Notes: a model not told the origin generated them from the sequence alone. 64,000 nt of DNA from a virus (IMGVR_UViG_3300049988_000286:160001-224000); one strand, 5' to 3'. Numbered from the stretch's first letter, positions 9,213-57,107 are shown. Program-made: numbers and translations.

Positions 9213-9456
9213 AGTCACTTTCCCACCCAGCGACTTCGACGGCATGGAACGCTTCTACGCGATTCGGCAAGCGCGCAAGCACGCGTTAGGGCCGTTCTCT
9301 TTGCGTGTGGGCGATAAGCGGATGTCAGCCATGAAGGGGATGCTTCCCGATGAGGCTTTTACCGCACATCTAGAGGATCGTTGGGGTCTCGTCTTCGAGA
9401 GCGAGGTGGACATGATGATGTTCAAGCTGGCGTTTCGCCCGATGGATCAGGCGTAA
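9205..9456 (+). CDS. small hypothetical protein, same family, 83 aa
   Basis: SD GAGGAG; FESEVDMMMFKLAF. Confidence 0.7.
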   Translation: MFEVTFPPSDFDGMERFYAIRQARKHALGPFSLRVGDKRMSAMKGMLPDEAFTAHLEDRWGLVFESEVDMMMFKLAFRPMDQA

Positions 9457-9797
9457 GCGGCAAGCTTCTTGGCCGTCGCCTTCATCCGCTTGCCCTCGGT
9501 ATCAGCGTGCTGGCAGCAGAACAGCAGGTTGATCACTCTACCCTTGAGCGAGTAGACGAGAATGATGTCGGGGGCGAGGTGGCAGTGCTGAAACCCCTTG
9601 AGCGGTCCGGTGAACGGACGATCATGGGAGCCGAAGCGTTGCTGTAAGGGATCGGGTAGCTTGGCGGCAGTGAACTGCGCCAGCTTATCCTTGAGACGCG
9701 GGTTTGCGCGCAGCAAGACGGCGAAGCTTTCGGTGAAGAGCGGCTTGGGTGCGATCGTCCACGGAACATCTCGTCCCGCTTCAACGATGATCGCCAT
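9447..9797 (-). CDS. YafQ/RelE-family mRNA interferase toxin, 116 aa
   Basis: DRPFTGPLKGFQHCHLAPDIILVY...CQHAD aligns by eye to E. coli YafQ DHPLQGSWKGYRDAHVEPDWILIY...GTHAA. Confidence 0.8.
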   Translation of the reverse strand: MAIIVEAGRDVPWTIAPKPLFTESFAVLLRANPRLKDKLAQFTAAKLPDPLQQRFGSHDRPFTGPLKGFQHCHLAPDIILVYSLKGRVINLLFCCQHADTEGKRMKATAKKLAAYA

Positions 9798-9805
9798 CCA
9801 CTCTC

Positions 9806-9946
9806 TTAAAGAGCGGCGAGCCACTTCGCGAATTCTTCCTGCGACATCGACTGGGTATCGTCCCCCTCGGCCGCGATGATGCGCGCGACGAGATCGGTAT
9901 CCTCGGTGATGATCTGCTCGATCAGCATGTCGGTGTCCTTTTCCAT
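9806..9946 (-). CDS. putative antitoxin, 46-aa acidic peptide (not in ORF track)
   Basis: MEKDTDMLIEQIITEDTDLVARIIAAEGDDTQSMSQEEFAKWLAAL; ends 8 nt before the toxin ATG. Confidence 0.65.
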   Translation of the reverse strand: MEKDTDMLIEQIITEDTDLVARIIAAEGDDTQSMSQEEFAKWLAAL

Positions 9947-9952
9947 GACCGG

Positions 9953-9958
9953 TATTTA
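9953..9958 (-). promoter_or_regulatory. late promoter TAAATA for the antitoxin-toxin pair
   Basis: 6 nt upstream of ATG 9946. Confidence 0.65.
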
Positions 9959-9984
9959 GCACAGTTCTGCGGCAAGGCAAGCAC

Positions 9985-9994
9985 TAATTGATTA
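9985..9994. promoter_or_regulatory. palindromic operator-like site TAATTGATTA (CACTAAT-TG-ATTAGTG)
   Basis: recurs at 14149 and 16076. Confidence 0.4.
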
Positions 9995-10019
9995 GTGAGA
10001 CTTAGCGAACAAAGACAAA

Positions 10020-10049
10020 TTGCACCCTTGGTGCGCCAGAAGGTATAAC
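10020..10049 (+). promoter_or_regulatory. sigma70-type promoter TTGCAC-N18-TATAAC
   Basis: predicted +1 coincides with ATG 10056. Confidence 0.55.
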
Positions 10050-10055
10050 ACCGTG

Positions 10056-10727
10056 ATGGAAAGAAATCGTTTTTGCGGCTTTTGTGGCACTGAATTCAAC
10101 GATCTGTCGTGGCCGCGCCACTGCACGAATTGCTCACGAGTGACCTACCGTAACCCCCTCGCTGTAGCGATCTGCCTCCAGCCGATCACCCACGGGGAGC
10201 GGACCGGACTCGCTATTGCCCAACGCGCTATTCCACCCGTTGGTGGTTGGGCGTTGGTGGCAGGACACCTCGAAGTGTTCGATCATGGTAGCGAAACGGT
10301 TGAGGAAGGGGCGGCACGCGAGTTCTTCGAGGAGACAAGCGTGCGTTCGGGCGCGAACCCACGCCTCATCCGCAGCGAGAAGAACCATCTCGGTCACCTG
10401 TTGATCATCGTCGAAACCGATGCCATCCCTTGGTCGGACTGGACAAAGGCCAGACCCTGTTCGGAAAACCTCGCCCTCGACGTAATGTGGGAGCCACGTG
10501 ACCTCTGCTTCCCCATTCACACCAAGGCAGCCAAGGATTGGTTCGAGGGTAGACAGAAGCCAGCAGCGACGCTTATCTTCAGCACCATCAACGAATACGA
10601 TTCGTGGTGCGCGGTATGGTCGATCGATCGGAACGGTGACTACATCGATGTGATCTTCGAGGATGCCGACGCGGAGACTTGCGAAGATTGGTGTGCCGCG
10701 AATGGCTATCGTATCGTCATCGTCTAG
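10056..10727 (+). CDS. Nudix hydrolase with N-terminal zinc ribbon and C-terminal extension
   Basis: FCGFCG...HCTNC..YRNP; GWALVAGHLE...AAREFFEETSV. Confidence 0.85.
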   Translation: MERNRFCGFCGTEFNDLSWPRHCTNCSRVTYRNPLAVAICLQPITHGERTGLAIAQRAIPPVGGWALVAGHLEVFDHGSETVEEGAAREFFEETSVRSGANPRLIRSEKNHLGHLLIIVETDAIPWSDWTKARPCSENLALDVMWEPRDLCFPIHTKAAKDWFEGRQKPAATLIFSTINEYDSWCAVWSIDRNGDYIDVIFEDADAETCEDWCAANGYRIVIV

Positions 10728-10736
10728 GAGATATTC

Positions 10737-10889
10737 GTGACACGAGATGAAAAAGCGACGCTCATCGAGGATGCGCGTCAGCGCATGGTGGAGGCGTATC
10801 GCAACTATACTGATCAAGGCAGTGTGGCGAACCTGACAGCCGCCGCATCCTATGCTGCGGTCATGTCCGCGTTGATCGCTGATCTATGA
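10737..10889 (+). CDS. hypothetical protein, 50 aa (not in ORF track)
   Basis: AGGAG SD, GTG start, ATGA overlap with the next gene. Confidence 0.6.
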   Translation: MTRDEKATLIEDARQRMVEAYRNYTDQGSVANLTAAASYAAVMSALIADL

Positions 10890-11212
10890 CCTTGCTTCCT
10901 CTCACGCCGGGGCTCCTTCTCTCGATGGCGCTTCGCTACGATCACAGCTTTGGCATTCATGGACCGTTTGATCCAGAACCCGATCTTGCTTCCAAGCAGA
11001 TGGCGATCTTCGATCAGGCGGTTGAGTATTGGCGCACTAGACACGACGAGCCCATTACTGTAACCGACCGTCAACTCCGGGAAGAAATGACCGGGGTTGG
11101 CTTCTTCGTCCCGGCCGTAGGTCAGGAGGATGTGAGCCTTCTTCGTGCATCAATGGATGCACGGGTGTTCGAGCACCTTGTGTGCTTGGTTGAGAGGTAT
11201 CGAGATGAGTGA
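10886..11212 (+). CDS. hypothetical protein, 108 aa
   Basis: coupled on both sides. Confidence 0.65.
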   Translation: MTLLPLTPGLLLSMALRYDHSFGIHGPFDPEPDLASKQMAIFDQAVEYWRTRHDEPITVTDRQLREEMTGVGFFVPAVGQEDVSLLRASMDARVFEHLVCLVERYRDE

Positions 11213-11648
11213 AACGGGTTTGCAGAAGTTGAAGGCCGATGTCATCGTGGCAATGAAGGCTGGGGATCGCACGCGCCTTGACGTGCTTCGCCAGTTCGTC
11301 AACCGCACCACGATGACGGCGAAGAACGACGGCAACCGTGACGCCACCGACAAGGATGTGATCACCGCCGGTCTCAAGATCGTCAAAGAGGCGAATGAGA
11401 CCCGCTCGATCTACGTCGAGAAGGGCGTCGATACCTCGCCGCAGGACACCGAAATCGCGATCGTCTCCGAGTATCTGCCCCGGCAGATGAGCGAGGATGA
11501 TCTGCGCGCCGTCCTCGTCACTCTCTCTGCCTCGGCACCGGAGGGCAAGGCGGCGCGCGGCTATTACAACAAGGAGTTGAACGCGCGCCACAAGGGCGAG
11601 TTCGACAACGCGGTGGCGCAGCGCATGATCGCCGAGATGGTAGCGTGA
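11205..11648 (+). CDS. GatB/YqeY domain protein
   Basis: VAMKAGDRTRLDVLR, EIAIVSEYLPRQMSEDDL. Confidence 0.85.
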   Translation: MSETGLQKLKADVIVAMKAGDRTRLDVLRQFVNRTTMTAKNDGNRDATDKDVITAGLKIVKEANETRSIYVEKGVDTSPQDTEIAIVSEYLPRQMSEDDLRAVLVTLSASAPEGKAARGYYNKELNARHKGEFDNAVAQRMIAEMVA

Positions 11649-11797
11649 AGATGACCTTCTTCCGCGCGATCTCGGCCGTGTTGATCGGTGCTGCCGTGGG
11701 GACGCTGGGGGCCGCTGTGGAACACAGCATGGCGGAACCGGCGTCGAAGAAGAAAGCCAAGAAGAAAACTCGCAAAAAGAAGGGTAAGCATGGCTAA
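11645..11797 (+). CDS. 50-aa membrane/signal peptide with poly-Lys tail (not in ORF track)
   Basis: MKMTFFRAISAVLIGAAVGTLGAAVEHSMAEPASKKKAKKKTRKKKGKHG; GTGA overlap. Confidence 0.55.
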   Translation: MKMTFFRAISAVLIGAAVGTLGAAVEHSMAEPASKKKAKKKTRKKKGKHG

Positions 11798-12053
11798 CAT
11801 CATCACACCAGACGAAGTGCGTGACTGGTTCGCCGATGCCGATGACGATGAGGTCACGGGCTTCCTCGAAGAGGGGCTCACGGATGTCATCGGCGGCGAG
11901 TCTCGTCCCCAGAAGGTCAAGGACATGATCATCGCGATGTCCGACCACACTATCCAGACGCTCCTCGACGACAATGGCCTTCAGCCTTTGATCGAGAACC
12001 TCGAAGAAGACGACTTCTTCGGTACCGAGGGCTTTGCCAAGCGCTTCGCATGA
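11790..12053 (+). CDS. highly acidic hypothetical protein, 87 aa
   Basis: 22 D/E versus 6 K/R. Confidence 0.75.
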   Translation: MANIITPDEVRDWFADADDDEVTGFLEEGLTDVIGGESRPQKVKDMIIAMSDHTIQTLLDDNGLQPLIENLEEDDFFGTEGFAKRFA

Positions 12054-12060
12054 ATGATCG

Positions 12061-12085
12061 CCGGTGGGATCGAGTGTCCCACCGG
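12061..12085. repeat. 9-bp perfect inverted repeat CCGGTGGGA-N7-TCCCACCGG
   Basis: seen directly; no U-tract. Confidence 0.6.
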
Positions 12086-12091
12086 TTGACA

Positions 12092-12097
12092 TAAATA
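12092..12097 (+). promoter_or_regulatory. late promoter TAAATA
   Basis: 4 nt upstream of ATG 12102. Confidence 0.65.
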
Positions 12098-12101
12098 GAT
12101 C

Positions 12102-12614
12102 ATGGTTTGCACGCATGATCATCCCCTCGTCGAGACGCAGCAACTCGATGAGATGTATTACAAAACGATGATGCAGAAGATTGTGCCCGGCTACCTGCCG
12201 ACGCGTGACTACGCCCCGTTGATTAAATTCGTCAAGTATCAGAAGACTGTGGGCAACACGATTCAGTTCTTCGTGCCCAACCGCTACAACGGCTTCATGG
12301 TTTATATCCGCTTCGATGAATGGGCGGAGAATGTCCGCGATCTCGAATACACGCCAGTAGAAGCAGCAAGGCTTCTATTCTGGGGCGCGAACCTGCGCAT
12401 CCACTGCAACTGCCCAAGCTTTGCCTTCCACGGCTATCAATATATCCTTTCCCAAACCGAATCCGCTATCGTGCCGGAAGTGCGCTTCCCCCATGTCCGC
12501 AACCCTCACCTCAAGGGTCTCTTGTGTAAGCATGGACGCCGGGTGATGAAGACCTTGCCGTTCCACCTCGGTGACATGGCGAAGGCTATCAAGGAACAGC
12601 GCGCGGCGCTCTAG
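12102..12614 (+). CDS. SWIM-like zinc-finger protein
   Basis: IHCNCPSF...LLCKHG (CxC-Xn-CxH). Confidence 0.65.
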   Translation: MVCTHDHPLVETQQLDEMYYKTMMQKIVPGYLPTRDYAPLIKFVKYQKTVGNTIQFFVPNRYNGFMVYIRFDEWAENVRDLEYTPVEAARLLFWGANLRIHCNCPSFAFHGYQYILSQTESAIVPEVRFPHVRNPHLKGLLCKHGRRVMKTLPFHLGDMAKAIKEQRAAL

Positions 12615-13177
12615 TCGCTGAACAGCACCTCGTCCGCTGTGGCCGATCCTTCGAAGTCGTAACGCTCTCCGGCTGGAAACCCGACGATGAGTTTCGTGCA
12701 GCGTTGACCACCAATCATGCGGTCGTATTTGAACCGACCATGCTTTGCTAGAATTTCTTTACCGAGTAGTTCTTCCGCATGATCGTTCGGAACTGGCGGC
12801 AGCCCGAGATTGAGCGCGACATTCGCCGCTTTACCGCTGGCCTCCGACCAGCCACGATGAAGCTTGATGTCATCGGCGACAATCCGCCGCAAATCAATCT
12901 TCGACTGTCGAGAGTCGTCGGTAGCAACACAGACGCGCTTCGCACCATACTTCTTCTTGAATATAGCAACGACGACGATCTTCCCTTTACGGCGGACAAG
13001 CTTCCACCAAGTATTGGGTTCATTGATAAGATCGTCAACACTCCGATAATTGAGGTTGCCGCCGATGTATTGATATGCTTTCTCTATCAGGTCGAATACC
13101 TCTGGCGCGTACTGCGCCTTCTGCTCGCGGTCAAAGAGGTTGACGTAAGTCTCTGTAAGAATCTCATGGAGGCGCAT
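12611..13177 (-). CDS. hypothetical protein, 188 aa, probable head-internal protein
   Basis: real start MRLHEILTE, 4 nt after TAAATA; the track ORF is over-extended. Confidence 0.75.
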   Translation of the reverse strand: MRLHEILTETYVNLFDREQKAQYAPEVFDLIEKAYQYIGGNLNYRSVDDLINEPNTWWKLVRRKGKIVVVAIFKKKYGAKRVCVATDDSRQSKIDLRRIVADDIKLHRGWSEASGKAANVALNLGLPPVPNDHAEELLGKEILAKHGRFKYDRMIGGQRCTKLIVGFPAGERYDFEGSATADEVLFSD

Positions 13178-13181
13178 TGGA

Positions 13182-13217
13182 TATTTATTACGGTGCGGTG
13201 ATGGTTTGGGGTAAATA
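13182..13217. promoter_or_regulatory. back-to-back divergent late promoters (TAAATA at 13182-13187 minus, 13212-13217 plus)
   Basis: 4 and 5 nt upstream of the two divergent ATGs. Confidence 0.7.
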
Positions 13218-13222
13218 CTCCC

Positions 13223-13873
13223 ATGCGCCACCACATCGACCTCATCAACTCTGTCCTCGTCGAGGCACAGAACACCAACGAGATTTTCCAGCAGACGCGC
13301 ACCGCGCTCACCCGCGCATGGACGAGCAAGAAGCGCCTCTCCTATCAGACCGCCCAGCGCGAGATCGTCACCACGCTGACGAAGATAGCCCAGCAGATGC
13401 AGGACGATTCGCACCCCATCACCGTCTTGGTCGATCTCTACCCCGATGATCCCAAGCCGGGTCGCCTGACCGCGCACCACGGTGGTGCATGGATGGTAAT
13501 CAACTTCGAGCGCACGCTTCCTGATGACTGGGACAAACTGTCGAACGAAGACATCACCACCGTGGTGTTCAAGGTCAGTCAGGTGTTCGCGCACGAGATG
13601 CAGCACTATGCACAGTATCTGCGCAACTGGTCGTATTTCGAGCAGCGGGGTGGTGACGCCCCCGAGAGTCAGGTGCGTTCCGACGCCGCCAGTGCGTGCC
13701 GGGAACTCATCGCCCACTACGGCGACGCCAAAACGGTAATCGGCGCGCTGAAGTCGAGCGTCGCTGACGTAATTGAGGCCTCCGAGGCAATGGCGAAGAA
13801 CCTTCGCAACACCACCAAGGAGGCCTCCAAGCGTTTCCTCACCGCCCTCTACACGCAGCTACAGACTAGCTAG
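13223..13873 (+). CDS. putative zincin-like metallopeptidase, 216 aa
   Basis: FAHEMQHYAQ (HEXXH) on a predicted helix. Confidence 0.55.
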   Translation: MRHHIDLINSVLVEAQNTNEIFQQTRTALTRAWTSKKRLSYQTAQREIVTTLTKIAQQMQDDSHPITVLVDLYPDDPKPGRLTAHHGGAWMVINFERTLPDDWDKLSNEDITTVVFKVSQVFAHEMQHYAQYLRNWSYFEQRGGDAPESQVRSDAASACRELIAHYGDAKTVIGALKSSVADVIEASEAMAKNLRNTTKEASKRFLTALYTQLQTS

Positions 13874-14042
13874 TCGAGCGGCATACCGCGCAATAGGGGA
13901 GAAGGTTGAGGACTTCGAGCAACTCGTCGAAGTCGTGGTCGTTGGTGACCTCGCACTCGCGCAGCGCCGCTCCCACCCCGGCCAGCGTGGGGTCGATCGT
14001 CACAACTACAATGATTCCGTCCTCCATCATTCGAGCCTCCAT
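13866..14042 (-). CDS. hypothetical protein, 58 aa (not in ORF track)
   Basis: MEARMMEDGIIVVVTID...; TAAATA at 14099-14104 upstream. Confidence 0.45.
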   Translation of the reverse strand: MEARMMEDGIIVVVTIDPTLAGVGAALRECEVTNDHDFDELLEVLNLLPYCAVCRSTS

Positions 14043-14118
14043 GGTGGTTGAGCCTAGTTAATCGATCAACCGTCCTGTGGTTCCACAGTTCACGGGAATA
14101 TTTATTCCATTATCGCTG

Positions 14119-14158
14119 TTGACAGTTCGCTGCCTTTCCCGTATTCGGTAATTGATTA
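14119..14158 (+). promoter_or_regulatory. sigma70-type promoter (TTGACA at 14119) with a TAATTGATTA site over the start region
   Basis: TTGACA-N17-TATTCG then TAATTGATTA and AGGAG SD. Confidence 0.5.
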
Positions 14159-14168
14159 GGAGAAAGCC

Positions 14169-15503
14169 ATGCTCGACCGTAACGATCCTGCCCGCACCGT
14201 TTTCCTCATCCCGGAGGCTCACATGCCCCGCTTGGAGCGCGAGGTAGCCAAGCTTTCCAAGAAGGCGGAGAAGTGGCACGGCTGGGCATTCGACGTGCTC
14301 GTCTTCGGTTTTCAGTTTCGCGACGAGCGGGATGGCACCAAGACCAAGCTGATCGAAGTTTCGCTCGATGTCGAGACTATCAAGCTTGACGGCTGGGAGT
14401 TTCTCGCGCGCCTCGATCACGCGCAGGATACGGGCAACATCGTCCGGTCGGTCCCCAACGCCGTCGTGGATGTCGCGGAGCGTTTCCGCCACTCCGCTCC
14501 GGACTGCGAGCACTGCAATCATCGTCGGCTGCGTCGCGACACCTTCGTGCTCTATGATGCCGAAAGCGGTGAGTACAAGCAGGTGGGCTCGACCTGTCTG
14601 GCCGATTTCCTCGGGCACGAGGCCACCAAGCTGGGCCGCATCGCCGAACTCGCCGGTTACGCGACGGAACTCGCCCGCGCTCTCGAAAAGGAGCCGGTGA
14701 GCAATGACCCTCGTGTCTTGCAGGAGCGTCGCTACATCGATCTCGCCGACTATCTCGTCCATTGCGCGACGATGATCCGCGTTAACGGCTGGGTCTCGGG
14801 CAAGGCCGCATACGAGAACAAGTCCCTGACCGCAACGCGCTGGGTGGCGCTCGACAACATGCTCACCGCGAGCATGACCTTCGTTGTGGAGCCCACGGAC
14901 GAGGATCAGGCACTGGCCGAGAAGGCTCGCGCTTGGGTGCAGGGCTTCGCCGATCTGCCGAGCCTCGACGAGTATCAGCACAACGTCCTGACCCTCGCCA
15001 ACGCGGTCGTGATCGATACCCGCGCGTGCGGCCTCGCGGCGTCGATCGTCGGCGTCTATTGGCTGAAGCACACGCCGAAGCGCGGCAAGGCGCAACTCGG
15101 TGACCTGACCGAAGTCCTGACGCTGTTCGGCCGCGCGGCGCGCCTCCGCAATCCCAAGATCAACCTCGACTTCCCCGACACGGGCAAGATCGTGCTCTCG
15201 GTCGCGGGTCCGCGCTCCAAGGCTCCGGGGACGATCAACGTCGCCACGCCGGGCGGATACGAGGCCAACACATGGTATGGCCGGGTCAATCTCGATGGTA
15301 GCTTCACGCCCACTCGTCAGGCTCCGGCAGCGCTGGAGGCTAGGCTGGCTTTGTTCGCCGCCGATCCCGCCAAGGTGGCGGGCGAGCATGGTCACCGCAC
15401 CGGCCAGTGCTGTTTCTGTAACCGTCCCCTCACGGACGAGCGTTCGACGGAAGTCGGATATGGCCCGGTCTGCGCGGACACTTTCGCCCTACCGTGGGGT
15501 TGA
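14169..15503 (+). CDS. phage protein with two Zn-binding motifs, C-terminal DUF6011-like domain
   Basis: CEHCNHRR...VGSTC and GQCCFCNRPLTDERSTEVGYGPVC. Confidence 0.75.
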   Translation: MLDRNDPARTVFLIPEAHMPRLEREVAKLSKKAEKWHGWAFDVLVFGFQFRDERDGTKTKLIEVSLDVETIKLDGWEFLARLDHAQDTGNIVRSVPNAVVDVAERFRHSAPDCEHCNHRRLRRDTFVLYDAESGEYKQVGSTCLADFLGHEATKLGRIAELAGYATELARALEKEPVSNDPRVLQERRYIDLADYLVHCATMIRVNGWVSGKAAYENKSLTATRWVALDNMLTASMTFVVEPTDEDQALAEKARAWVQGFADLPSLDEYQHNVLTLANAVVIDTRACGLAASIVGVYWLKHTPKRGKAQLGDLTEVLTLFGRAARLRNPKINLDFPDTGKIVLSVAGPRSKAPGTINVATPGGYEANTWYGRVNLDGSFTPTRQAPAALEARLALFAADPAKVAGEHGHRTGQCCFCNRPLTDERSTEVGYGPVCADTFALPWG

Positions 15504-15603
15504 CAGTTCACCAAATGATCGGCTTGCGGAGAAGCCGCTGGACAAGCGCCCGCAAGTAGATCACGCCATCTGGAGCGGTCAGGGGATCGCCGGGGGTGCG
15601 ACA

Positions 15604-15819
15604 ATGGCTTGGATGATCCCAAAGGATGCGCTGCTGCTGATTATCAACCATCGCATCGACTGTCTGCGGCAAGACGCCCGTATGGGCCAAATCGCTGCTC
15701 GGCAGAAGATCGACGTGTTGGAAGATTTATTGGTGATGATCGACTTTATTCAGCCGATATCGATCGGATCAGTCGAGCCAGTAAATCTTGCGGAAACTAT
15801 CCGCATCACGCCCGCTTAA
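15604..15819 (+). CDS. hypothetical protein, 71 aa
   Basis: ATG after a GGGGGT SD-like sequence; the track ORF is over-extended. Confidence 0.4.
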   Translation: MAWMIPKDALLLIINHRIDCLRQDARMGQIAARQKIDVLEDLLVMIDFIQPISIGSVEPVNLAETIRITPA

Positions 15820-16056
15820 CGCCAACACGGCGTCGCGCTCGTCGATGGTGATGTAACGATCATCGTTACCGAGATGCCAGTCATCCTTGGCGTTCATGAA
15901 GAGGAAATCCATCAGGGCACCACGGAAGACGATCGCCTCGAACGCGGAGTGCTCACTCAACGCGACGCGGAAGATGTGACGATCACCCATGACACCAATC
16001 GGCTTGATGGTGAAGGAGTCGAGGTCAACGGCCTCGTAGGGGTTAGTCGCCAGCAT
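15769..16056 (-). CDS. hypothetical protein, 95 aa
   Basis: ORF; IDERDAVLAL resembles the small-protein family motif. Confidence 0.6.
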   Translation of the reverse strand: MLATNPYEAVDLDSFTIKPIGVMGDRHIFRVALSEHSAFEAIVFRGALMDFLFMNAKDDWHLGNDDRYITIDERDAVLALSGRDADSFRKIYWLD

Positions 16057-16075
16057 AGATGCGCTCTACACCGGC

Positions 16076-16085
16076 TAATCAATTA
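16076..16085. promoter_or_regulatory. TAATTGATTA site (minus strand)
   Basis: intergenic, upstream of 16056. Confidence 0.4.
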
Positions 16086-16087
16086 AG

Positions 16088-16354
16088 TCAACTGATTGCG
16101 GCTGACTTGTAGCCCGAGAACGCATGGTCGAGAAATGATTCGCTGCACAGCATGTGGAGTAGTTCCATAAAGGAGTAGTCGGAACTGTCCCGGATCAGGC
16201 AGGTGAACATATCATGACAATAGCAATCCACTGCTACTACGGAAACGCCCTGATTGAAGCACTGATTGTAGATGTAACGACGAACCTCGTCCACAAATGC
16301 ACGAAGCCGATCAGCGCGTCGATTAAACAGGTCGTCCCTTGAAACGATATTCAT
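16088..16354 (-). CDS. hypothetical protein, 88 aa, Cys/His-rich, lower GC
   Basis: GGAGG SD and TAAATA at 16374-16379. Confidence 0.65.
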   Translation of the reverse strand: MNIVSRDDLFNRRADRLRAFVDEVRRYIYNQCFNQGVSVVAVDCYCHDMFTCLIRDSSDYSFMELLHMLCSESFLDHAFSGYKSAAIS

Positions 16355-16396
16355 GTTGTTGAACCTCCACGAGTATTTATCGATAGAGGGGCGATT

Positions 16397-17083
16397 TTAC
16401 ACGCGAGGGAAGGCCTCTCCACTGCGATAATGTGGGTCGCCTTTGAGGTGATCGTTTATCAGCATAACGACGACGCGGCAGTTGGCTTTGCTCAACAACA
16501 GGGCCTGACAGGGCTCGTTGGGATGAATGACTGCGTTGCCGCGATCAACGAAACCCGCGTAACCGAGGCGACGCAGCATGGAGTTCCAGATGATGTGCTC
16601 CTCCCGACCGAGCAGCCTTTCCGCCCGCTTGGCGATGCGGTGAGTGAGGTTCCAGAATACCTCACCGGTAGTGTTGTAGTTGTGGTAGAGATCACCGGTC
16701 CAACCCTCGATCATCGATAGGGCGAATTGTTCGTTGTTGGCATCAACGAGCCGCCACAACTGGGTGCAGATACCGTCGTAGTCGTGCTCGAACTGGCTAT
16801 CGTCATACTCGCCGATATCGCAAATTTCTCCCCGTCCCTCGAACAAGCAGACGTATTTTCGATCGGAGGCGAATGGGATCGTGGATTCGCGCATCATCTC
16901 ATAGGCTTCCCGCAAGGGGTAGGCGTAGATACCGATCGGCGTTGAGGTATGCTGCGTCGATGGATTGATCCCCAGCTTCTCAATATCGACGAAGGATACG
17001 AACATGTTGGGTCGATTGAGGTATTGGGCGAGCACCGACATCGCGGTTTCGGAGCGACGCTCCATGAGGTCAAGGAGGATCAT
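16397..17083 (-). CDS. hypothetical protein, paralogue 2, possible ADP-ribosyltransferase-like fold, 228 aa
   Basis: FVSF..KLGINP..TPIGIYAYP...LRRLGYAGFVD..IHPNEPCQA. Confidence 0.75.
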   Translation of the reverse strand: MILLDLMERRSETAMSVLAQYLNRPNMFVSFVDIEKLGINPSTQHTSTPIGIYAYPLREAYEMMRESTIPFASDRKYVCLFEGRGEICDIGEYDDSQFEHDYDGICTQLWRLVDANNEQFALSMIEGWTGDLYHNYNTTGEVFWNLTHRIAKRAERLLGREEHIIWNSMLRRLGYAGFVDRGNAVIHPNEPCQALLLSKANCRVVVMLINDHLKGDPHYRSGEAFPRV

Positions 17084-18297
17084 CCCTCCACCCCGTGCGC
17101 GATCACGTCGGCGACTTGAGGGATTTTGGTGAATGCCTCGAAATTGTCGATGCGGGACGGGTTATGGAGCAAACCTTGTATATTTCCACGATCAAGGCCG
17201 CTCGCCAACAGTTCTCGCAATACATCGGAGTCGATCTTGCCTTTGGCGAAGGCGATGAGGTGTTCCTTCATCGAACGAAATTTCATCAATCGTCGGATAT
17301 GGTTCATCCTGTCGGGGAAGTCAGAATGACCAAGGATATAATCGATGATGTCAAATTCATGATTGCTGATGCAGAAGAAAACAACTTGGCTCTTTTGCTC
17401 ATCCGTGCATTTATCGAGGAAGCGGTACTTCATTGCTTGCTTCAAATTCGAATCGGCGTAGGAGTCGATGAAGCGGATCGTGTCATCGACGTTCGCAACA
17501 GTGAGGCGCTGGACGCGCGCCGCAGGGATGTTGTTGATCTCGCCGGTGGTGATCATCTTGACCATCGATGACTTCCACGTGTTCTGGACACGCTCGTGGC
17601 CGATCGATCGGTTGATGATCGTGATGGGCTTGATCACGCCGGGGTTGAAGATCACCGCCTGTGTGGGCTCATTCTCGTGGATGAAGCCATCGCCGCGGGC
17701 ATCGAAGGCGAGGTCGAAACCGATTTTGCGCAGGAGGGATGTCCACATACCGATCGAGGCCTTGCCCGGCTTGAGAGCGATCGAGAGAAGCCGGGTGGTA
17801 TTCCACAGCCATGCGACGGGCATCATCGCGTAAGCGGTGCGCCGTCCCTCTTCAGAAATCGTGTCGAGAGTCTCCACATCGATCAGGCGCAACTCCTCCA
17901 AGATGCGCATCTTCTCGCGCCACTCCGCCATGGTGAGGTCGCCGGTAAGTTCGCGCTTCAGCGGCGCAGTGACGCGGAAAACCCACGCATGGTCCCAAGG
18001 CGATTCGCCACTAAAGGGCACTTCGAGACCACCATTATAGTCACGCCCGTCGTCACCGAACTGCTCGGTATATTCGATGACATAATCAACCGGGTAGCAG
18101 TAAACACCTAGAGGTGTCTCGAAACCAGAGCGAGGATTGATACCAAGCTTGGCGGCTTTGTTCTTGCCAAACCCTTGTGTAAAACTGACGAAAACATCGT
18201 CCTCTCCGCGAAACTTTTCTAGCTGCTCAAGCGGAGTACCGGCGCGAGGATTACGCGCTGGATTAGACCGACGTTCAAAAAGGTCTTGGAGGAACAT
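17080..18297 (-). CDS. hypothetical protein, paralogue 1, possible ART-like fold plus helical C-terminus, 405 aa
   Basis: FVSF..KLGINP..TPLGVYCYP...LRKIGFDLAFD..IHENEPTQAVIFNP; start MFLQDLFER, 5 nt after TATAAATA. Confidence 0.75.
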   Translation of the reverse strand: MFLQDLFERRSNPARNPRAGTPLEQLEKFRGEDDVFVSFTQGFGKNKAAKLGINPRSGFETPLGVYCYPVDYVIEYTEQFGDDGRDYNGGLEVPFSGESPWDHAWVFRVTAPLKRELTGDLTMAEWREKMRILEELRLIDVETLDTISEEGRRTAYAMMPVAWLWNTTRLLSIALKPGKASIGMWTSLLRKIGFDLAFDARGDGFIHENEPTQAVIFNPGVIKPITIINRSIGHERVQNTWKSSMVKMITTGEINNIPAARVQRLTVANVDDTIRFIDSYADSNLKQAMKYRFLDKCTDEQKSQVVFFCISNHEFDIIDYILGHSDFPDRMNHIRRLMKFRSMKEHLIAFAKGKIDSDVLRELLASGLDRGNIQGLLHNPSRIDNFEAFTKIPQVADVIAHGVEG

Positions 18298-18302
18298 GCG
18301 GG

Positions 18303-18310
18303 TATTTATA
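18303..18310 (-). promoter_or_regulatory. late promoter, full T4 consensus TATAAATA
   Basis: exact consensus. Confidence 0.75.
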
Positions 18311-23413: not shown

Positions 23414-24286
23414 TCAATGATCGTGCTTTTTATCAGCCTCTGCCTTTGCCATCGCGGCGATCTGCGCGGCTGATTTGCGCCCGCGCTTCGCCGGTAGAGG
23501 CTTGGGTTCCACGACGCCGCTCTGTGCGAGTTCGTTCTCGATCTGGCGCGTGTGGCTCGGTGACATTCCCATATGGATCAGGAGGTCATCCCGGATATTC
23601 TGTGCCTTCTTCTCCAAGTTGATGACGCGCACGAAGCAGTGGGTCAGCGTTGTGGTAAAGAATGCGAAGGGGTTGTTAGACTTCGACTCGTCAAACTGTA
23701 GGCCCACCTGTGCGAGATGGGTCAGCGCCAGTCCCTTCATATCATCGCGGTAGCTGTAGTTACGGAAGTTGCTCTTGCCGCTATACTTATCGACCAGCAT
23801 GACGAACATCAGCCCAAGCCGTTCCGACATTCGTCCCTTCTCGATCGTGAACTCACCGGTCTCGAAATCACCACGCCAATGCGATCGGCCGACTTCGGTC
23901 CACACCTGTTCACCGTCCTCATCGAAGGACAGTAGATAGTGCTTGAAGGGAGGAAAGTTAGTGCGGGCGTGGCTCTGATTAGTGGCACGAGACTTGCGCT
24001 TACGATCGGGGTCAAGGGGGACGTGATCATAGGTCATTACCCGGAATACCAGTCCATCAGCAGTATGGGGCTCCTGATCGTCTTCCAGCTTCGAATTTAG
24101 CTTGGACAGAAGCTCAAGGAGGTAAATGTCGGTCACCGAAGCGAGGCTACTCACAATGGCGTCGTATTCCGAATATTCCGGATCGATAAAGGTGCAAAAG
24201 GTCTTTTTGCAACGAGCGATCTCGGCCAGCAATTCTTTATTGGACAGATACTTAATGGCGCGGGGGCGAGTTACGGTTTTGGTCAT
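23414..24286 (-). CDS. late-transcription sigma factor (T4 gp55-like)
   Basis: YLSNKELLAEI, NFRNYSYRDDM, QFDESKSNNPFAFFT, INLEKKAQNIRD. Confidence 0.85.
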   Translation of the reverse strand: MTKTVTRPRAIKYLSNKELLAEIARCKKTFCTFIDPEYSEYDAIVSSLASVTDIYLLELLSKLNSKLEDDQEPHTADGLVFRVMTYDHVPLDPDRKRKSRATNQSHARTNFPPFKHYLLSFDEDGEQVWTEVGRSHWRGDFETGEFTIEKGRMSERLGLMFVMLVDKYSGKSNFRNYSYRDDMKGLALTHLAQVGLQFDESKSNNPFAFFTTTLTHCFVRVINLEKKAQNIRDDLLIHMGMSPSHTRQIENELAQSGVVEPKPLPAKRGRKSAAQIAAMAKAEADKKHDH

Positions 24287-53873: not shown

Positions 53874-54494
53874 ATGTCGCATATCCCACTTACCGAAGAC
53901 CTTACCTTTAGTCAGTCGATGCTAACCCCGCTGACCGAGGGCGAGGGTTCCAAGAAGGACTGGTACCTCAAGGGTATTTTCGTGCAGGGCGATGTTCGTA
54001 ACCTCAACCGTCGCGTGTATCCCACCAACGAGATCAAGAAGGCGGTCGCGCTCGTGAAGGAGAAGGCCAAGGACTTCACCGTCTGGGGCGAATTGGATCA
54101 CCCCGCAGAGTTGCAGATCAATCTGGATCGCGTCTCCCACCTCATCGAAGACATGTGGATGGAAGGCAATAACGGCATGGGCAAGTTGAAGATTGTCAAC
54201 ACGCCGATGGGTAACATCGCCAAGGCCATGCTTGAAGCCGGTGGCAAGATGGGTGTGTCTTCGCGCGGCTCCGGCAACGTCGATTACGACGGCGTTGTTT
54301 CCGAGTTTGAGATCGTCACCGTTGATCTGGTTGCTACTCCGAGCGCACCCGATGCCAAGCCGATCGCCATCTACGAGGCGTTCACTGGTCCGCGCGGCTA
54401 CATCCGCGAAGATTTGGCCCGTGCGGTCATGAATGATCCAAAGGCACAGAAGTATCTCCATAGTGAGATGCTGTCGTGGATGGATCGCCTGTAA
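53874..54494 (+). CDS. prohead core protease (T4 gp21-like)
   Basis: GELDHP, RVSH, GVSSRGSG, TVDLVATPSAPDA; TAAATA at 53842. Confidence 0.95.
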   Translation: MSHIPLTEDLTFSQSMLTPLTEGEGSKKDWYLKGIFVQGDVRNLNRRVYPTNEIKKAVALVKEKAKDFTVWGELDHPAELQINLDRVSHLIEDMWMEGNNGMGKLKIVNTPMGNIAKAMLEAGGKMGVSSRGSGNVDYDGVVSEFEIVTVDLVATPSAPDAKPIAIYEAFTGPRGYIREDLARAVMNDPKAQKYLHSEMLSWMDRL

Positions 54495-54595: not shown

Positions 54596-55840
54596 ATGCC
54601 CAAAACGATTGAAGAAATCCTGAACGAGACGCTCGCCCCCGAGATGAAAGCGTCTCTGAAGGAAGCTTTCGACGCAAAGGTCGATGCCATGCGTGTAGAG
54701 ATCGAGGAAAGCGTCCGCGCTGACATCTCGAACCGCTACGAGCATGACAAGAGCCAGCTTGTCGAAGCGATGGATAAGATGCTCACGGACGTGATCCGCG
54801 TGCATGAGGAGGCCAAGGCTTCCGAGATCGCGCAGCTTGCCGAAGCCCGCACCAAGTACAAGACCGCCATCACCGAGAGCAAGACCGCCATCAAGGGCCG
54901 GGTTGCTGCGATGTCGTCCGCTGCCATGAAGATGATCAGCGAGTCGGTTGCCGCAGAGGTCAAGTCGCTGCGTGATCAGAAGGTGTCGATTGCTAACGAG
55001 GCCGCTGCTCTCTCCGAGAGCGTTGAGGCGGTAAAGTCGAAGCTGGTCGAGAACCACGAGGCTCACCTCATCAAGATCAACGAATTCGTGACCCGTCAGG
55101 TAGCGAAGGAAGTTGGCGAATTCGCACAGGACAAGCGTGCACTCGTCGAGACCCGCGTCAAGCTGATCTCGGAGAACAAGCAGAAGCTGGCCGAAGCACA
55201 GAAGAAGTTCATCAAGGAAGCGGCTGCCAAGGTCGAAGCTACTGTGACTGACACGCTGTCGCGTGAAATGACGCAGCTTCACGAGGACATCGAGCGTAAC
55301 CGTGACAATCAGTTCGGTCGCGACATCTTCGAAGCCTTCGCTGCTACCTACATGTCATCGCACCTTGCCGAGGGTTCGGAGGTCCGCAAGCTTCAGAAGA
55401 TGCTTGAGAGCCGCGACGCCACGATCGCTGCCAAGGAAGGCGAGTTTGCCACGATGAAGACGAAGCTGGACGAGGCAAAGACTGCCGCCGCCACTGCCGA
55501 GCGTCGCATCGTTGTCGAGGGCGAGCGTGCTGCTCGTTCGAAGATCATCAGTGATCTGGTTGCCAATCTTCGTGGCGACAAGCGCGCTGTGATGGAGAGT
55601 ATGCTTGAGACGACCAAGACGGTCAACCTCAAGAATGCTTTCGATAAGCTTCTCCCGGTCGTTCTCGCAGAGTCGCCCCGGAAGGCTGTTCCCGCAGGTA
55701 AGAAAGTCTTGAGCGAGACCAAGGTTGCTCCCGCTGCTGTCACCACCGGTGACCGTCGCGTTCGCACCGAAGCAATCGTTGAGGATGACAGCGCAGTATC
55801 CGAGATCGCCCGTTTGGCGGGAACTCTCCGGAAACTGTAA
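54596..55840 (+). CDS. prohead scaffold protein (T4 gp22-like)
   Basis: long charged coiled coil between protease and capsid; TAAATA at 54544. Confidence 0.85.
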   Translation: MPKTIEEILNETLAPEMKASLKEAFDAKVDAMRVEIEESVRADISNRYEHDKSQLVEAMDKMLTDVIRVHEEAKASEIAQLAEARTKYKTAITESKTAIKGRVAAMSSAAMKMISESVAAEVKSLRDQKVSIANEAAALSESVEAVKSKLVENHEAHLIKINEFVTRQVAKEVGEFAQDKRALVETRVKLISENKQKLAEAQKKFIKEAAAKVEATVTDTLSREMTQLHEDIERNRDNQFGRDIFEAFAATYMSSHLAEGSEVRKLQKMLESRDATIAAKEGEFATMKTKLDEAKTAAATAERRIVVEGERAARSKIISDLVANLRGDKRAVMESMLETTKTVNLKNAFDKLLPVVLAESPRKAVPAGKKVLSETKVAPAAVTTGDRRVRTEAIVEDDSAVSEIARLAGTLRKL

Positions 55841-55910: not shown

Positions 55911-57107
55911 ATGAATCTTTTCGAAAGCAAGTGGGATGGCCTCAAGGAGAAGCTCCTCGAAGGTTCCGACCTCACGCACAACATGGACGGTTCGCTGAAC
56001 AACAACAAGAAGAAGACCATGAATCTTCTCCTTGAGAACACCCGCCGTAGCCTCATGGAGGCTGCTTCTTCGGGTGCCACTTCGGCAGCGCAGATCGCCC
56101 AGCTTAACAAGGTCATTCTGCCGGTCATGCGCCGCGTTATGCCCACCGTCATCGCGAACGAGATCGTCGGTGTTCAGCCGATGGCCGGTCCGATCAGCCA
56201 GATTCACACGATGCGCATCTCCTACGCGGAGTCGGTCACGGGTGGCGTTACGGCTGGTGACGAGATGTTCTCGCCCTACAACATCGCGAAGTATTACTCC
56301 GGTGATACCTCGGCTCCGACCACGCCGCAGGGCGCTCTGACTGGCACGCTGGAGGGAACTCCGGGCCGTGGCGTCAAGATCAGCACGCTGCGTCAGACGG
56401 TTGAGGCTCGCTCGCGCAAGCTGTCGGCTCGCTGGACCTTCGAGTCGGCGCAGGACGCACAGTCGCAGCAGGGCATCGACGTTGAGCAGGAAGTCATGGC
56501 TGCCGTCGCGCAGGAGATCACTGCCGAGATCGATCAGGAAATCCTGTATCACCTCCGTCAGCTTGCTGGCACCTCGCAGACCTTCTCACAGGCTGCTGTC
56601 ACCGGCACCCCGACCTTCATCGGCGATGTGCACGCTGCTCTGGCGATCCAGATCAACCGCGCTGCGAACATCATTGCTACCCGCACCCGTCGTGGCGCTG
56701 GTAACTGGTGCGTCGTTTCGCCGACCGCTCTGACGCTCCTCCAGTCGGCGACGACTTCGGGCTTCGCGCGTTCGACCGATGGTGTCTTCGACGCTCCGAC
56801 CAACACCAAGTTCGTCGGCACGCTGAACAACACCCTCCGCGTTTATGTCGATGGCTACGGTCAGGACGAGACGCCGGTTCTGATCGGCTACAAGGGTAAC
56901 GAGACGGACGCTGCGGCGTTCTACTGCCCCTATGTTCCGCTGACCTCTTCGGGCGTGGTCCTCGACCCGCAGACGATGGAGCCGGTGGTGTCGTTCATGA
57001 CCCGCTACGGTTACACCGAGTTGTCCTCGAACTCGACTTCGCTCGGCAACGCAGCGGACTATGTTTCGAAGATCAACATCGACACGACTTCGCTGACTTG
57101 GATGTAA
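55911..57107 (+). CDS. major capsid protein (T4 gp23-like)
   Basis: VMRRVMPTVIANEIVGVQPM, RKLSARWT, EITAEIDQEI, AFYCPYVPL, FMTRYG; TAAATA at 55878. Confidence 0.97.
   Translation: MNLFESKWDGLKEKLLEGSDLTHNMDGSLNNNKKKTMNLLLENTRRSLMEAASSGATSAAQIAQLNKVILPVMRRVMPTVIANEIVGVQPMAGPISQIHTMRISYAESVTGGVTAGDEMFSPYNIAKYYSGDTSAPTTPQGALTGTLEGTPGRGVKISTLRQTVEARSRKLSARWTFESAQDAQSQQGIDVEQEVMAAVAQEITAEIDQEILYHLRQLAGTSQTFSQAAVTGTPTFIGDVHAALAIQINRAANIIATRTRRGAGNWCVVSPTALTLLQSATTSGFARSTDGVFDAPTNTKFVGTLNNTLRVYVDGYGQDETPVLIGYKGNETDAAAFYCPYVPLTSSGVVLDPQTMEPVVSFMTRYGYTELSSNSTSLGNAADYVSKINIDTTSLTWM

What the first reader, a model, noticed from the sequence alone, without database searches (positions are those of the whole stretch)
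9447..18310. Candidate head-packaged effector arsenal: late genes with a shared N-terminal protease tag and stand-alone conflict domains
Seen: six proteins directly behind TAAATA late promoters or in late operons begin with a hydrophobic-x-E peptide. These are MAIIVE-A (YafQ-like), MLIEQIITE-D (its partner), PLVE-T/QLDE-M (SWIM), MRLHEILTE-T (12611), LINSVLVE-A (zincin) and MFLQDLFE-R; the coupled paralogue begins MILLDLME-R. The capsid protein has the same pattern (SLME-A). Established: T4 internal proteins and Alt carry a short capsid-targeting peptide removed by gp21 after (I/L)-x-E, then are injected. RelE-like RNases, HEXXH peptidases and ARTs are typical domains of phage polyvalent proteins. 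Inference: these are separately tagged, injected host-takeover or anti-defence enzymes, in effect a disassembled polyvalent protein.
Basis: partly seen in the sequence, partly recalled or inferred. Interest (0 to 1): 0.78.

Follow-up and report, generated by a model that had tools for sequence, protein, structure and literature searches.

The report
Capsid-address tags on late phage enzymes
In this 500-kb uncultured T4-related phage, five or six unrelated late proteins in the flagged region (50 in the whole genome) begin with a short shared peptide that ends in the cutting motif of the phage's head protease, so they are probably loaded into the capsid and delivered with the DNA, as T4 does with a few proteins; no experiment has shown this.

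Summary
The window lies in a 499,572-bp Rak2-like phage that has a T4-type S77 prohead protease. TAAATA followed by four bases and ATG occurs 76 times, against 0 in the control. Fifty otherwise mostly unrelated proteins begin with one of three tag forms: MRxxI(N/D)L.E, MLLxDLFE or MRxx(E/Q)II.E. The tag is found on 43% of late-start genes and 3% of the others (p = 1e-27). Four proteins in the flagged region carry strict tags: a GNAT-fold protein, a doubtful zincin, and two ART-like paralogues.

Its N-terminus then matches the tag that its homologues carry. Its small partner gene and their 19-nt overlap are conserved in relatives. The SWIM protein is related to P1 gp25 and its motif is at chance level.

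The tag ends in (L/I)-x-E, like T4's IPII/IPIII peptide MKTYQEFIAE, T4 Alt's ITE-6 site, and the conserved L-x-E site in this clade's capsid protein. Packaging, cleavage and injection remain untested. Only 2 of the other 46 tagged proteins have a Pfam match.

This scan had already found the same tag in two other windows of this genome (e1-5341074, e1-5341219) and similar tags in other megaphages.

The parts
9953..9958 (-). TAAATA late-promoter element, 6 nt before the ATG of the partner gene. It heads the operon of the partner and the RelE-like gene.
9806..9946 (-). Small acidic partner protein of 46 aa. The N-terminus is MEKDTDMLIEQIITE-D and the C-terminus EFxKWLxxL is conserved. Candidate inhibitor or chaperone of the RelE-like protein.
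   Evidence: Homologues in L014 and L015 have the same position, the same two-ATG N-terminus and the same C-terminus. No family match.
9447..9824 (-). RelE/YafQ-like RNase-fold protein. The revised GTG start at 9824 gives the N-terminal tag MARRSLREWMAIIVE-A, then a short linker, then the core starting at W.
   Evidence: Pfam YafQ_toxin 1.6e-6, 28.8 bits against a cut-off of 30. PHROG RelE-like 1e-5. 120 homologues, most with an (S/x)LRxhI(D/N)LhE(A/G) N-terminus. The 19-nt overlap with the partner is conserved.
12102..12614 (+). SWIM-containing protein behind TAAATA-N4-ATG (TAAATA at 12092-12097). The core resembles phage P1/P7 gp25. No genome-wide tag.
   Evidence: Weak SWIM match. phrog_1722 1.3e-12. 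tblastn to P1/P7 gp25 over residues 67-144. The N-terminus does not fit any tag class.
12611..13177 (-). GNAT-fold protein of 188 aa with a class-3 tag, MRLHEILTE-T, directly behind TAAATA (13182-13187) plus 4 bases.
   Evidence: Three orthologues all start with MR tags. In the AlphaFold model, helix 3-7 has low confidence and is followed by strand beta1 at 9-14. 176 PDB GNAT matches, best 8e-6. Atlas result.
13223..13873 (+). 216-aa protein with a class-1-like tag, MRHHIDLINSVLVE-A, behind TAAATA (13212-13217) plus 5 bases. Contains HEMQH. Doubtful zincin.
   Evidence: The only orthologue starts MLMRRFIDIVME and has QEMQH. Weak M78/SprT-like structural resemblance, TM 0.4-0.5. No relevant Pfam match.
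17080..18297 (-). 405-aa protein built of a class-2 tag (MFLQDLFE-R), an RRSNPxxNP linker, an ART-like domain (about residues 26-232) and a helical-repeat domain (232-405). It lies behind TATAAATA (18303-18310) plus 5 bases.
   Evidence: 234 homologues, nearly all starting M(R/K)xx(E/D)(I/L)xEARRNPExNPK. Model pLDDT 78. AFDB hits to ART-PolyVal-like, DUF3990 and RES. The top PDB hit by two methods is a cyanophage A4 ejection protein, 9k3a_B, Z 7.3.
16397..17083 (-). 228-aa paralogue containing only the ART-like domain, with class-2 tag MILLDLME-R. Translationally coupled to the upstream gene by an ATGA overlap.
53874..54494 (+). Prohead protease of the T4 gp21 family (Peptidase_S77). Presumed to be the enzyme that removes the tags.
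   Evidence: Pfam PF03420, 92 bits, 7.7e-27. phrog_207 3.3e-57.
54596..55840 (+). 414-aa helical, scaffold-like head-core protein with 29 hydrophobic-x-E sites. N-terminus MPKTIEEILNE-T. Presumed docking partner for the tags.
55911..57107 (+). Major capsid protein (gp23-like) with the predicted maturation site SLME-AASSG.
   Evidence: phrog_138 4e-86. Sequence. L48 and E50 are invariant in Phosso, 121Q and a Vibrio phage.
23414..24286 (-). Homologue of the T4 late sigma factor gp55.
   Evidence: T4 gp55 used as query, E 2.5e-5.

Best explanation
The region holds part of a genome-wide cargo set. These are late genes, mostly transcribed from TAAATA so close to the ATG that the mRNA is probably leaderless. 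Their products begin with an 8-16-residue amphipathic peptide ending in (L/I)-x-Glu.

By analogy with the T4 capsid targeting sequence, the proposed mechanism has three steps, all inferred:
1. The peptide docks the protein onto the scaffolding core while the prohead assembles.
2. The S77 prohead protease cuts after the Glu.
3. The mature enzyme stays inside the head and leaves with the DNA at the next infection.

In this window the probable cargo is:
- a RelE/YafQ-like RNase, made together with a small partner that probably keeps it harmless in the producing cell;
- a GNAT-fold acyltransferase;
- two ART-like paralogues;
- one protein of unclear fold that carries an HExxH motif.

Shown here: the tag, its statistics, its portability across folds, its conservation in relatives, and its match to the protease motif.
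For: 1. A specific tag is present on 50 proteins. It marks 43% of late-start genes against 3% of others, p = 1e-27.
2. Selection acts on the peptide, not the DNA. Arg2 is encoded by CGC, CGA, AGA and CGT. Nine tagged genes are operonic rather than behind TAAATA, and in contig L015 six consecutive tagged genes lack TAAATA.
3. The tag is portable. Without it there are 49 singletons and 6 small clusters. One paralogue cluster carries all three tag forms. The folds include RelE-like, GNAT and ART-like. RelE-like homologues occur with the tag plus a linker of variable length, and also without any tag.
4. Glu is at residue 9 or 10 in 28 of 31 class-1 tags (p = 1.5e-22), with L or I at P3. This matches T4 gp21 specificity as described in PMC9026906 and PMC5694885.
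5. The machinery is present: S77 protease, scaffold-like protein, capsid protein with a conserved L-x-E site, and gp55-like sigma factor.
6. The tags resemble verified T4 signals: IPII/IPIII MKTYQEFIAE-A and Alt MELITE-LFDE (ITE-6 cleavage in PMC5694885). Alt is also an ADP-ribosyltransferase.
7. In the models the tag is a short, low-confidence helix ahead of the folded domain.
8. Relatives L009 and L010 show the same promoter-plus-tag design.
9. The ART-like domain's best solved match is a virion ejection protein.
Against: - There are no virion proteomics, no N-terminal sequencing and no RNA data for this phage or any tag-bearing relative.
- Fifty or more cargo species would far exceed any documented case for the T4 type.
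- The closest cultured relative, Sinorhizobium phage Phosso (capsid protein 66% identical), has neither the tag nor the TAAATA-N4-ATG design. The head machinery therefore does not require the tag, and there is no experimental proxy.
- In the GNAT protein the predicted cut falls at the first residue of strand beta1.
- Class-2 tags have Arg at P1'. Whether the protease accepts this is unknown.
- T4 gp61.1 begins MKTFKEFIKE, and I know of no report that it is packaged. A CTS-like N-terminus alone does not prove packaging.
Confidence: 0.6

Rival explanations
1. The peptide is an address or docking helix for some other late structure or partner, such as the tail or baseplate, the membrane, a chaperone or an oligomerisation scaffold. 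On this view it is not for head packaging, and the terminal Glu is part of a binding surface.
For: - The only direct facts are a conserved amphipathic N-terminal helix and late expression.
- Phosso has the same head genes without the tag.
- The SWIM neighbour resembles the P1 protein gp25, annotated 'tail stability'.
Against: - The near-invariant (L/I)-x-E end matches the prohead-protease motif and the conserved capsid-protein site.
- The tag resembles the T4 CTS and the Alt propeptide.
- No alternative receptor is evident.
Confidence: 0.15
2. The peptide is a removable pro-sequence or degradation signal. It would keep toxic enzymes inactive or short-lived in the producing cell, without any packaging.
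For: - Several tagged proteins are potentially toxic: RelE-like and ART-like.
- The tag ends in a protease motif.
Against: - An 8-10-residue helix outside the fold is unlikely to inhibit such different enzymes.
- The RelE-like protein has its own dedicated partner gene.
- In the T4 model the gp21-type protease is described as cleaving head proteins within the assembled prohead (PMC5694885).
Confidence: 0.08
3. The shared start reflects constraints on translation of leaderless late mRNAs, through codon or nascent-peptide effects. It would not be a protein-sorting signal.
For: 41 of 50 tags sit directly behind TAAATA plus 4-7 bases and ATG.
Against: - 56 of 97 such late starts lack the tag.
- Nine tagged genes are operonic or Shine-Dalgarno-led, and in L015 all six are.
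- The codons vary synonymously.
- RelE-like homologues carry the tag 3-8 residues away from Met1.
Confidence: 0.05
4. The pattern is chance, or is the conserved N-terminus of a single expanded paralogous family.
For: The loose hydrophobic-x-E motif has a background of about 19%. Six small paralogue clusters exist.
Against: - Strict-tag association p = 1e-27.
- 49 singleton proteins once the tag is removed.
- At least three different folds carry the tag.
Confidence: 0.03

Closest known systems
Capsid targeting sequence (CTS) of phage T4 internal proteins IPI, IPII and IPIII, and the N-terminal propeptide of T4 Alt (Mullaney and Black 1996, as reviewed in PMC9026906, PMC3012670 and PMC5694885)
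   Same: - A peptide of 6-10 residues at the extreme N-terminus on otherwise unrelated accessory proteins.
- Hydrophobic residues at about positions 4 and 7.
- It ends in (L/I)-x-E, the gp21 motif.
- The phage has a gp21-family protease, a scaffold core, and a capsid protein with an L-x-E site.
- The cargo includes an ART-like enzyme, as Alt is.
   Different: - About 50 tagged proteins here against four in T4.
- Three consensus forms, none identical to MKTYQEFIAE.
- Mostly leaderless-looking late starts.
- The cargo includes a RelE-like RNase with a partner gene and a GNAT-fold protein.
- Nothing has been shown experimentally.
Polyvalent proteins of phages and conjugative elements (Iyer et al. 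2017, as cited in PMC7824862)
   Same: The domain repertoire matches (ART-PolyVal-like, GNAT, zincin-like peptidase). The presumed role, delivery with the DNA to act early against the host, also matches.
   Different: Here the domains are separate small proteins, each with its own tag and promoter. They are not fused into one giant polypeptide.
Phage P1 Dar system and the DarB N-terminal packaging signal (PMC9024508)
   Same: An N-terminal signal (30 residues in DarB) is sufficient to load an accessory anti-defence protein into the head.
   Different: P1 loading is stepwise and depends on DarA/Hdf. The signal is longer and unrelated in sequence. P1 has only a few cargo proteins.
Propeptides of ejection and inner-body proteins in phiKZ-like giant phages such as SPN3US and phiKZ (PMC5694885, PMC7411985)
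   Same: Many head-internal proteins are processed after Glu by a gp21-related protease. The propeptides are thought to act in targeting.
   Different: Those propeptides are often longer than 100 residues, use an (S/A)-x-E motif, and share no common short tag.

Membership tests
T4-type capsid targeting sequence / prohead-protease propeptide | Short peptide at the extreme N-terminus, shared by otherwise unrelated proteins | tested here: met
   50 proteins in three tag forms. With the tag removed there are 49 singletons.
T4-type capsid targeting sequence / prohead-protease propeptide | Peptide ends in the gp21 cleavage motif (L/I)-x-E | tested here: met
   28 of 31 class-1 tags have Glu at residue 9 or 10 (p = 1.5e-22). 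P3 is L or I in 26 of those 28.
T4-type capsid targeting sequence / prohead-protease propeptide | Phage encodes a gp21-family protease, a scaffold core and a capsid protein processed at L-x-E | tested here: met
   PF03420 at 92 bits. Head module. The L-x-E site is conserved in four capsid proteins. Actual processing was not tested.
T4-type capsid targeting sequence / prohead-protease propeptide | Synthesis at the time of prohead assembly (late) | tested here: inconclusive
   There is a strong association with TAAATA, which also precedes the head genes, and a gp55 homologue is present. No RNA data are available.
T4-type capsid targeting sequence / prohead-protease propeptide | Protein present in virions with the peptide removed, and peptide sufficient to target a reporter | not testable with these tools
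   The phage is uncultured. No proteome exists for it or for any tag-bearing relative.
RelE/YafQ toxin family (PF15738) | Sequence match to the family profile over the curated threshold | tested here: inconclusive
   28.8 bits against a cut-off of 30, E 1.6e-6, covering profile positions 37-85 of 88. PHROG RelE-like 1e-5. The HCHL and H..EG motifs are invariant or nearly so in 20 homologues.
Type II toxin-antitoxin pair | Adjacent, co-transcribed small partner gene that neutralises the toxin | tested here: inconclusive
   The partner gene and the 19-nt overlap are conserved in three contigs. The partner matches no antitoxin family. Neutralisation was not tested.
GNAT acyltransferases | GNAT fold | tested here: met
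   176 PDB matches at E <= 1e-3, all GNATs among the 50 listed, best 8e-6. The model topology is GNAT-like, but mean pLDDT is only 62. There is no Pfam match, and cofactor-binding residues were not examined.
ART-PolyVal (PF18760) / ADP-ribosyltransferase fold | Sequence or fold match, and catalytic residues | tested here: inconclusive
   There is no Pfam match for 17080-18297 or for 47 relatives. AFDB fold hits to ART-PolyVal-like, DUF3990 and RES have E 0.01-0.2. The catalytic triad was not identified. Another tagged protein, G000 372433-372966, matches PF18760 at 1.4e-6.
Zincin (HExxH) metallopeptidases | Conserved HExxH zinc-binding motif | tested here: not met
   HEMQH here is QEMQH in the only orthologue. 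Structural resemblance reaches only TM 0.4-0.5. I do not file this protein as a zincin.
Polyvalent proteins | Several conflict domains fused in one very large polypeptide | tested here: not met
   The proteins are 46-405 aa with one catalytic-type domain each. The resemblance is functional only.

The most novel reading that the evidence does not exclude
A clade of leaf-associated megaphages uses one portable address peptide of 8-10 residues to load fifty or more different stand-alone proteins into the capsid and inject them. The cargo would include a RelE-type RNase that travels or is produced with its own inhibitor, plus ART-like and GNAT enzymes. This would be a modular protein-delivery system an order of magnitude larger than T4's. 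The cargo list could then be read straight from the genome, and most of it is functionally unknown.
Probability: 0.45. Interest if true: 0.8.

Novelty: new variant of a known kind. Interest (0 to 1): 0.66.

Why it matters
If the tag is a capsid address, the injected proteome of uncultured giant phages could be predicted from sequence alone. That would point directly to dozens of candidate host-takeover and anti-defence proteins, nearly all without a known family. It would also show that T4's internal-protein strategy scales to about 7% of a phage's genes (50 of about 780). A packaged RelE-like RNase with a dedicated partner would be a new way for a phage to use a toxin-antitoxin-like pair. The short tag could also be useful for loading foreign proteins into phage heads.

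Tried and rejected
- **RNA evidence.** No RNA holder was listed for the region or for the single gene, so transcription starts could not be checked.
- **Megablast of the region against phages.** No match.
- **Scan of viral contigs for the promoter plus tag.** No match. The tag alone gave one contig, L003, with MRNWINLLEA but no TAAATA.
- **The search for related loci.** Nothing for the 405-aa protein or for the SWIM protein.
- **Cultured proxy.** Phosso lacks both the tag and the TAAATA-N4-ATG design. The RaK2 paper reports only that the capsid protein runs smaller than predicted, with no cleavage site and no tags.
- **Pfam on all 46 tagged proteins outside the window.** Only a weak GNAT match and one ART-PolyVal/DUF3990 match. 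A genome-wide 'conflict-domain arsenal' therefore cannot be demonstrated by sequence.
- **Pfam on 48 members of the 405-aa protein's family.** Only DUF4116 in some C-termini.
- **PDB Foldseek for that protein.** No hit at E <= 1e-3. The best is 9k3a_B at 3.3e-3, and VIA gives Z 7.3, which is middling.
- **Rejected gene call.** The + strand ORF 12779-13201 that my first gene call preferred is wrong. The - strand gene has three orthologues.
- **Rejected start codon.** The ATG at 9797 for the YafQ-like gene is replaced by the GTG at 9824.

Full report
**Context.**
The window is bases 160001-224000 of a single 499,572-bp IMG/VR virus record with 57% G+C. Its major capsid protein is 61-66% identical to those of Rak2-like jumbo phages. 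The nearest cultured relative is Sinorhizobium phage Phosso, at 469 kb. The window contains a T4-style head module:
- portal, 50665-52458;
- a 315-aa acidic protein;
- a Peptidase_S77 (gp21-family) prohead protease, 53874-54494, 92 bits;
- a 414-aa helical scaffold-like protein;
- the capsid protein, 55911-57107.

A homologue of the T4 late sigma factor gp55 lies at 23414-24286.

**Checking the observation.**
TAAATA occurs 26 times in the window against 6.1 expected. Genome-wide there are 171 copies, and 102 of them are followed by ATG after exactly 4 or 5 bases. TAAATA-N4-ATG occurs 76 times against 0 for the reversed control.

The same element, with a longer leader and a Shine-Dalgarno sequence, precedes the portal, protease, scaffold-like and capsid genes. 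It therefore behaves as the late promoter, as TATAAATA does in T4. With only 4-5 bases before the ATG, the accessory transcripts are probably leaderless. That is inference; no RNA runs were available.

Hydrophobic-x-E with E at residue 6-15 is found in 19-20% of non-late proteins and in 15-18% of shuffled N-termini. In the flagged region 9 of 17 genes have it (p = 0.002), but two of those are plainly not tags.

What is highly significant is a specific consensus that appears when all late starts are listed. It has three forms:
- class 1, MRxxI(N/D)(L/I).E, 31 proteins;
- class 2, M(L/F/I)(L/I)x(D/Q)L(F/L/M)E, 9 proteins;
- class 3, MRxx(E/Q/N)(I/L)(I/L/V)x?E, 10 proteins.

A slightly broader pattern (tag2) marks 43% of the 97 late-start genes against 3% of the other 691 (Fisher p = 1e-27). 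Of the 50 strictly tagged proteins, 41 sit directly behind TAAATA. Late genes without a strict tag carry the loose motif at 30% versus 19% (p = 0.054), which is close to background.

**Is the signal a peptide or a DNA feature?**
It is a peptide:
- Arg2 is encoded by CGC, CGA, AGA and CGT, and Leu7 by four different codons.
- Nine tagged genes are operonic rather than behind TAAATA.
- In the related contig L015, six consecutive tagged genes (MRKWINLIED and similar) have no TAAATA at all.
- More than half of the leaderless-type late genes lack the tag.

**Is it paralogy?**
No. With the first 14 residues removed, a set of 66 broadly tag-like proteins fell into 49 singletons and six clusters of 2-4 members at E < 1e-3. 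One of those clusters has members carrying class 1, class 2 and class 3 tags. The three forms are therefore interchangeable versions of one signal.

**The proteins of the finding.**

(a) *12611-13177(-), MRLHEILTE-T, directly behind TAAATA-N4.* It has three orthologues in 5.8 billion proteins. All start with MR tags, and two of them have a full class-1 tag followed by a second h-x-E. The AlphaFold model puts a low-confidence helix at residues 3-7 ahead of strand beta1. The fold is GNAT: 176 PDB matches at E <= 1e-3, best 8e-6 (Atlas result). The + strand ORF over this stretch is a false call.

(b) *13223-13873(+), MRHHIDLINSVLVE-A.* Its single orthologue begins MLMRRFIDIVME. HEMQH here is QEMQH there, and the structural resemblance to M78/SprT-type peptidases is weak. 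I do not accept it as a zincin.

(c) *17080-18297(-), MFLQDLFE-R, and the coupled paralogue 16397-17083(-), MILLDLME-R.* There are 234 homologues, on contigs up to 578 kb. Nearly all start M(R/K)xx(E/D)(I/L)xEARRNPExNPK, and Glu8 is at least 90% conserved across 48 aligned members. The model has mean pLDDT 78. It shows the tag as a short helix, then an unstructured linker, then an alpha/beta domain (about residues 26-232) and a helical-repeat domain.
   - AFDB matches include ART-PolyVal-like, DUF3990 and RES proteins.
   - The best solved match by two independent aligners is a large ejection protein of the cyanophage A4 pre-ejectosome: 9k3a_B, residues 1120-1606, Foldseek E 3.3e-3, VIA Z 7.3. 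The structure is described in PMC12002296.
   - These matches are moderate and no Pfam profile hits. 'ART-like' is a lead, not a membership.

(d) *The YafQ-like protein.* Pfam gives 28.8 bits against a cut-off of 30, and PHROG gives RelE-like at 1e-5. An exhaustive search found 120 homologues. Most begin with a few residues followed by (S/x)LRxhI(D/N)LhE(A/G), then a linker of 4-25 residues, then the core. Some lack the tag altogether.
From a GTG at 9824 it reads MARRSLREWMAIIVE-A, which aligns with those tags.
   - That start overlaps the upstream gene by 19 nt. The same 19-nt overlap is seen in two other contigs.

(e) *The partner, 9806-9946(-).* It and its homologue in L015 both start at the TAAATA-proximal ATG. 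The N-termini are MEKDTDMLIEQIITE-D and MSKQEPDMQINEALVE-A, and both share the C-terminus (E/D)FxxWLxxL. It is a conserved, co-translated companion of the RelE-like protein and plausibly its inhibitor. No family matches it.

(f) *The SWIM protein, 12102-12614(+).* It is late and leaderless-type, but its N-terminus fits no tag class. Its core resembles P1/P7 gp25, a protein detected weakly in P1 virions (PMC9024508). Its h-x-E motifs are at chance level.

**Fit to the protease.**
Class-1 tags were selected on residues 1-7 only. Even so, 28 of 31 have Glu at residue 9 or 10 (expected about 12%, p = 1.5e-22). P3 is L or I in 26 of the 28, and P1' is most often Ala. The capsid protein's SLME-AASSG site has L and E invariant in Phosso, 121Q and a Vibrio phage.

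The T4 signals were verified from NC_000866:
- IPII and IPIII begin MKTYQEFIAE-A.
- Alt begins MELITELFDE, and six residues are removed at ITE-6 (PMC5694885).

For the T4 CTS, residues 4 and 7 matter for targeting and residues 8 and 10 for processing (PMC9026906). The tags here have hydrophobic or aromatic residues at positions 4 and 7 and Glu at 8-10.

**Relatives.**
Contigs L009 (176 kb, 53% G+C) and L010 (74 kb, 50% G+C) carry orthologues of the GNAT gene and show the same TAAATA-N4-ATG plus tag design. L010 has seven such genes in 20 kb. Phosso has none. The system is therefore specific to this uncultured clade, and no cultured proxy exists.

**Interpretation.**
The best-supported reading is a T4-type capsid-targeting propeptide used on a much larger scale. 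Packaging, cleavage and ejection are inferred, not shown.

The 'disassembled polyvalent protein' picture fits the few cargo proteins that can be recognised. These are the RelE-like protein, the GNAT-fold protein, and ART-PolyVal-like domains, which include a Pfam-level match in tagged protein G000 372433-372966. ART and GNAT are domain types listed for injected polyvalent proteins in PMC7824862. However, 44 of the 46 tagged proteins outside the window have no Pfam match at all.

I found no paper that describes such tags in Rak2-like phages or megaphages. The concept that the CTS lets T4-like phages package varied proteins is established (PMC9026906, PMC3012670).

This scan had already reported the same tag from two other windows of this genome, and similar tags from other megaphages. 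I re-derived the genome-wide statistics independently before reading those notes.

Noticed in passing
whole genome; in the window e.g. 12092-12104, 13177-13187, 13212-13225, 18297-18310: TAAATA followed by exactly 4 bases (75 cases) or 5 bases (27 cases) and then ATG. The N4 form occurs 76 times in the pattern search against 0 in the control, and only once in the closest cultured relative, Phosso. This implies a large class of leaderless late mRNAs, whereas the head genes use the same element with a leader of about 20-50 nt and a Shine-Dalgarno sequence.
   Followed up: partly
window 9806-9824: The RelE-like gene most likely starts at a GTG that overlaps the end of the partner gene by 19 nt. 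The same 19-nt overlap is present in contigs L014 and L015.
   Followed up: yes
L015:1682-5689: An 8.3-kb related contig has six consecutive tagged genes (MRKWINLIED, MRKWIDLMEG and similar) immediately downstream of its RelE-like gene. They are packed head to tail without TAAATA.
   Followed up: partly
L009:10573-11166 and L010:10558-11181: In relatives the GNAT-fold orthologue is followed by a UPF0227 (YqiA-like hydrolase) gene. An Atlas cluster of 386-aa proteins carrying UPF0227 aligns with the GNAT protein (TM 0.71), which suggests a fused form. That neighbour is absent in this window.
   Followed up: no
window 54596-55840 and 52806-53753: The scaffold-like protein begins MPKTIEEILNE-T and the 315-aa acidic head-core protein begins MKSILEKALVHLLNE-D. 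Both N-termini resemble the cargo tags.
   Followed up: no
T4 NC_000866 18966-19130 (L008): The T4 protein gp61.1 (54 aa), annotated as hypothetical, begins MKTFKEFIKED, close to the IPII/IPIII capsid targeting sequence. I know of no report that it is packaged.
   Followed up: no
window 34242-44096: A single open reading frame of 3,284 aa on the + strand, just upstream of structural genes. Not examined.
   Followed up: no
window 57198-58697: A 499-aa protein that matches HNH/homing-endonuclease PHROG families lies immediately after the major capsid gene.
   Followed up: no
window 18773-19243 and 10020-10727: A macro-domain protein (phrog_335, 1e-37) and a NUDIX protein flank the tagged genes. 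Neither carries the tag.
   Followed up: partly
L003:3514-3640: An unrelated-looking 64-kb IMG/VR contig (44% G+C) encodes a protein starting MRNWINLLEA with no TAAATA upstream. The same tag may be used outside this clade.
   Followed up: no
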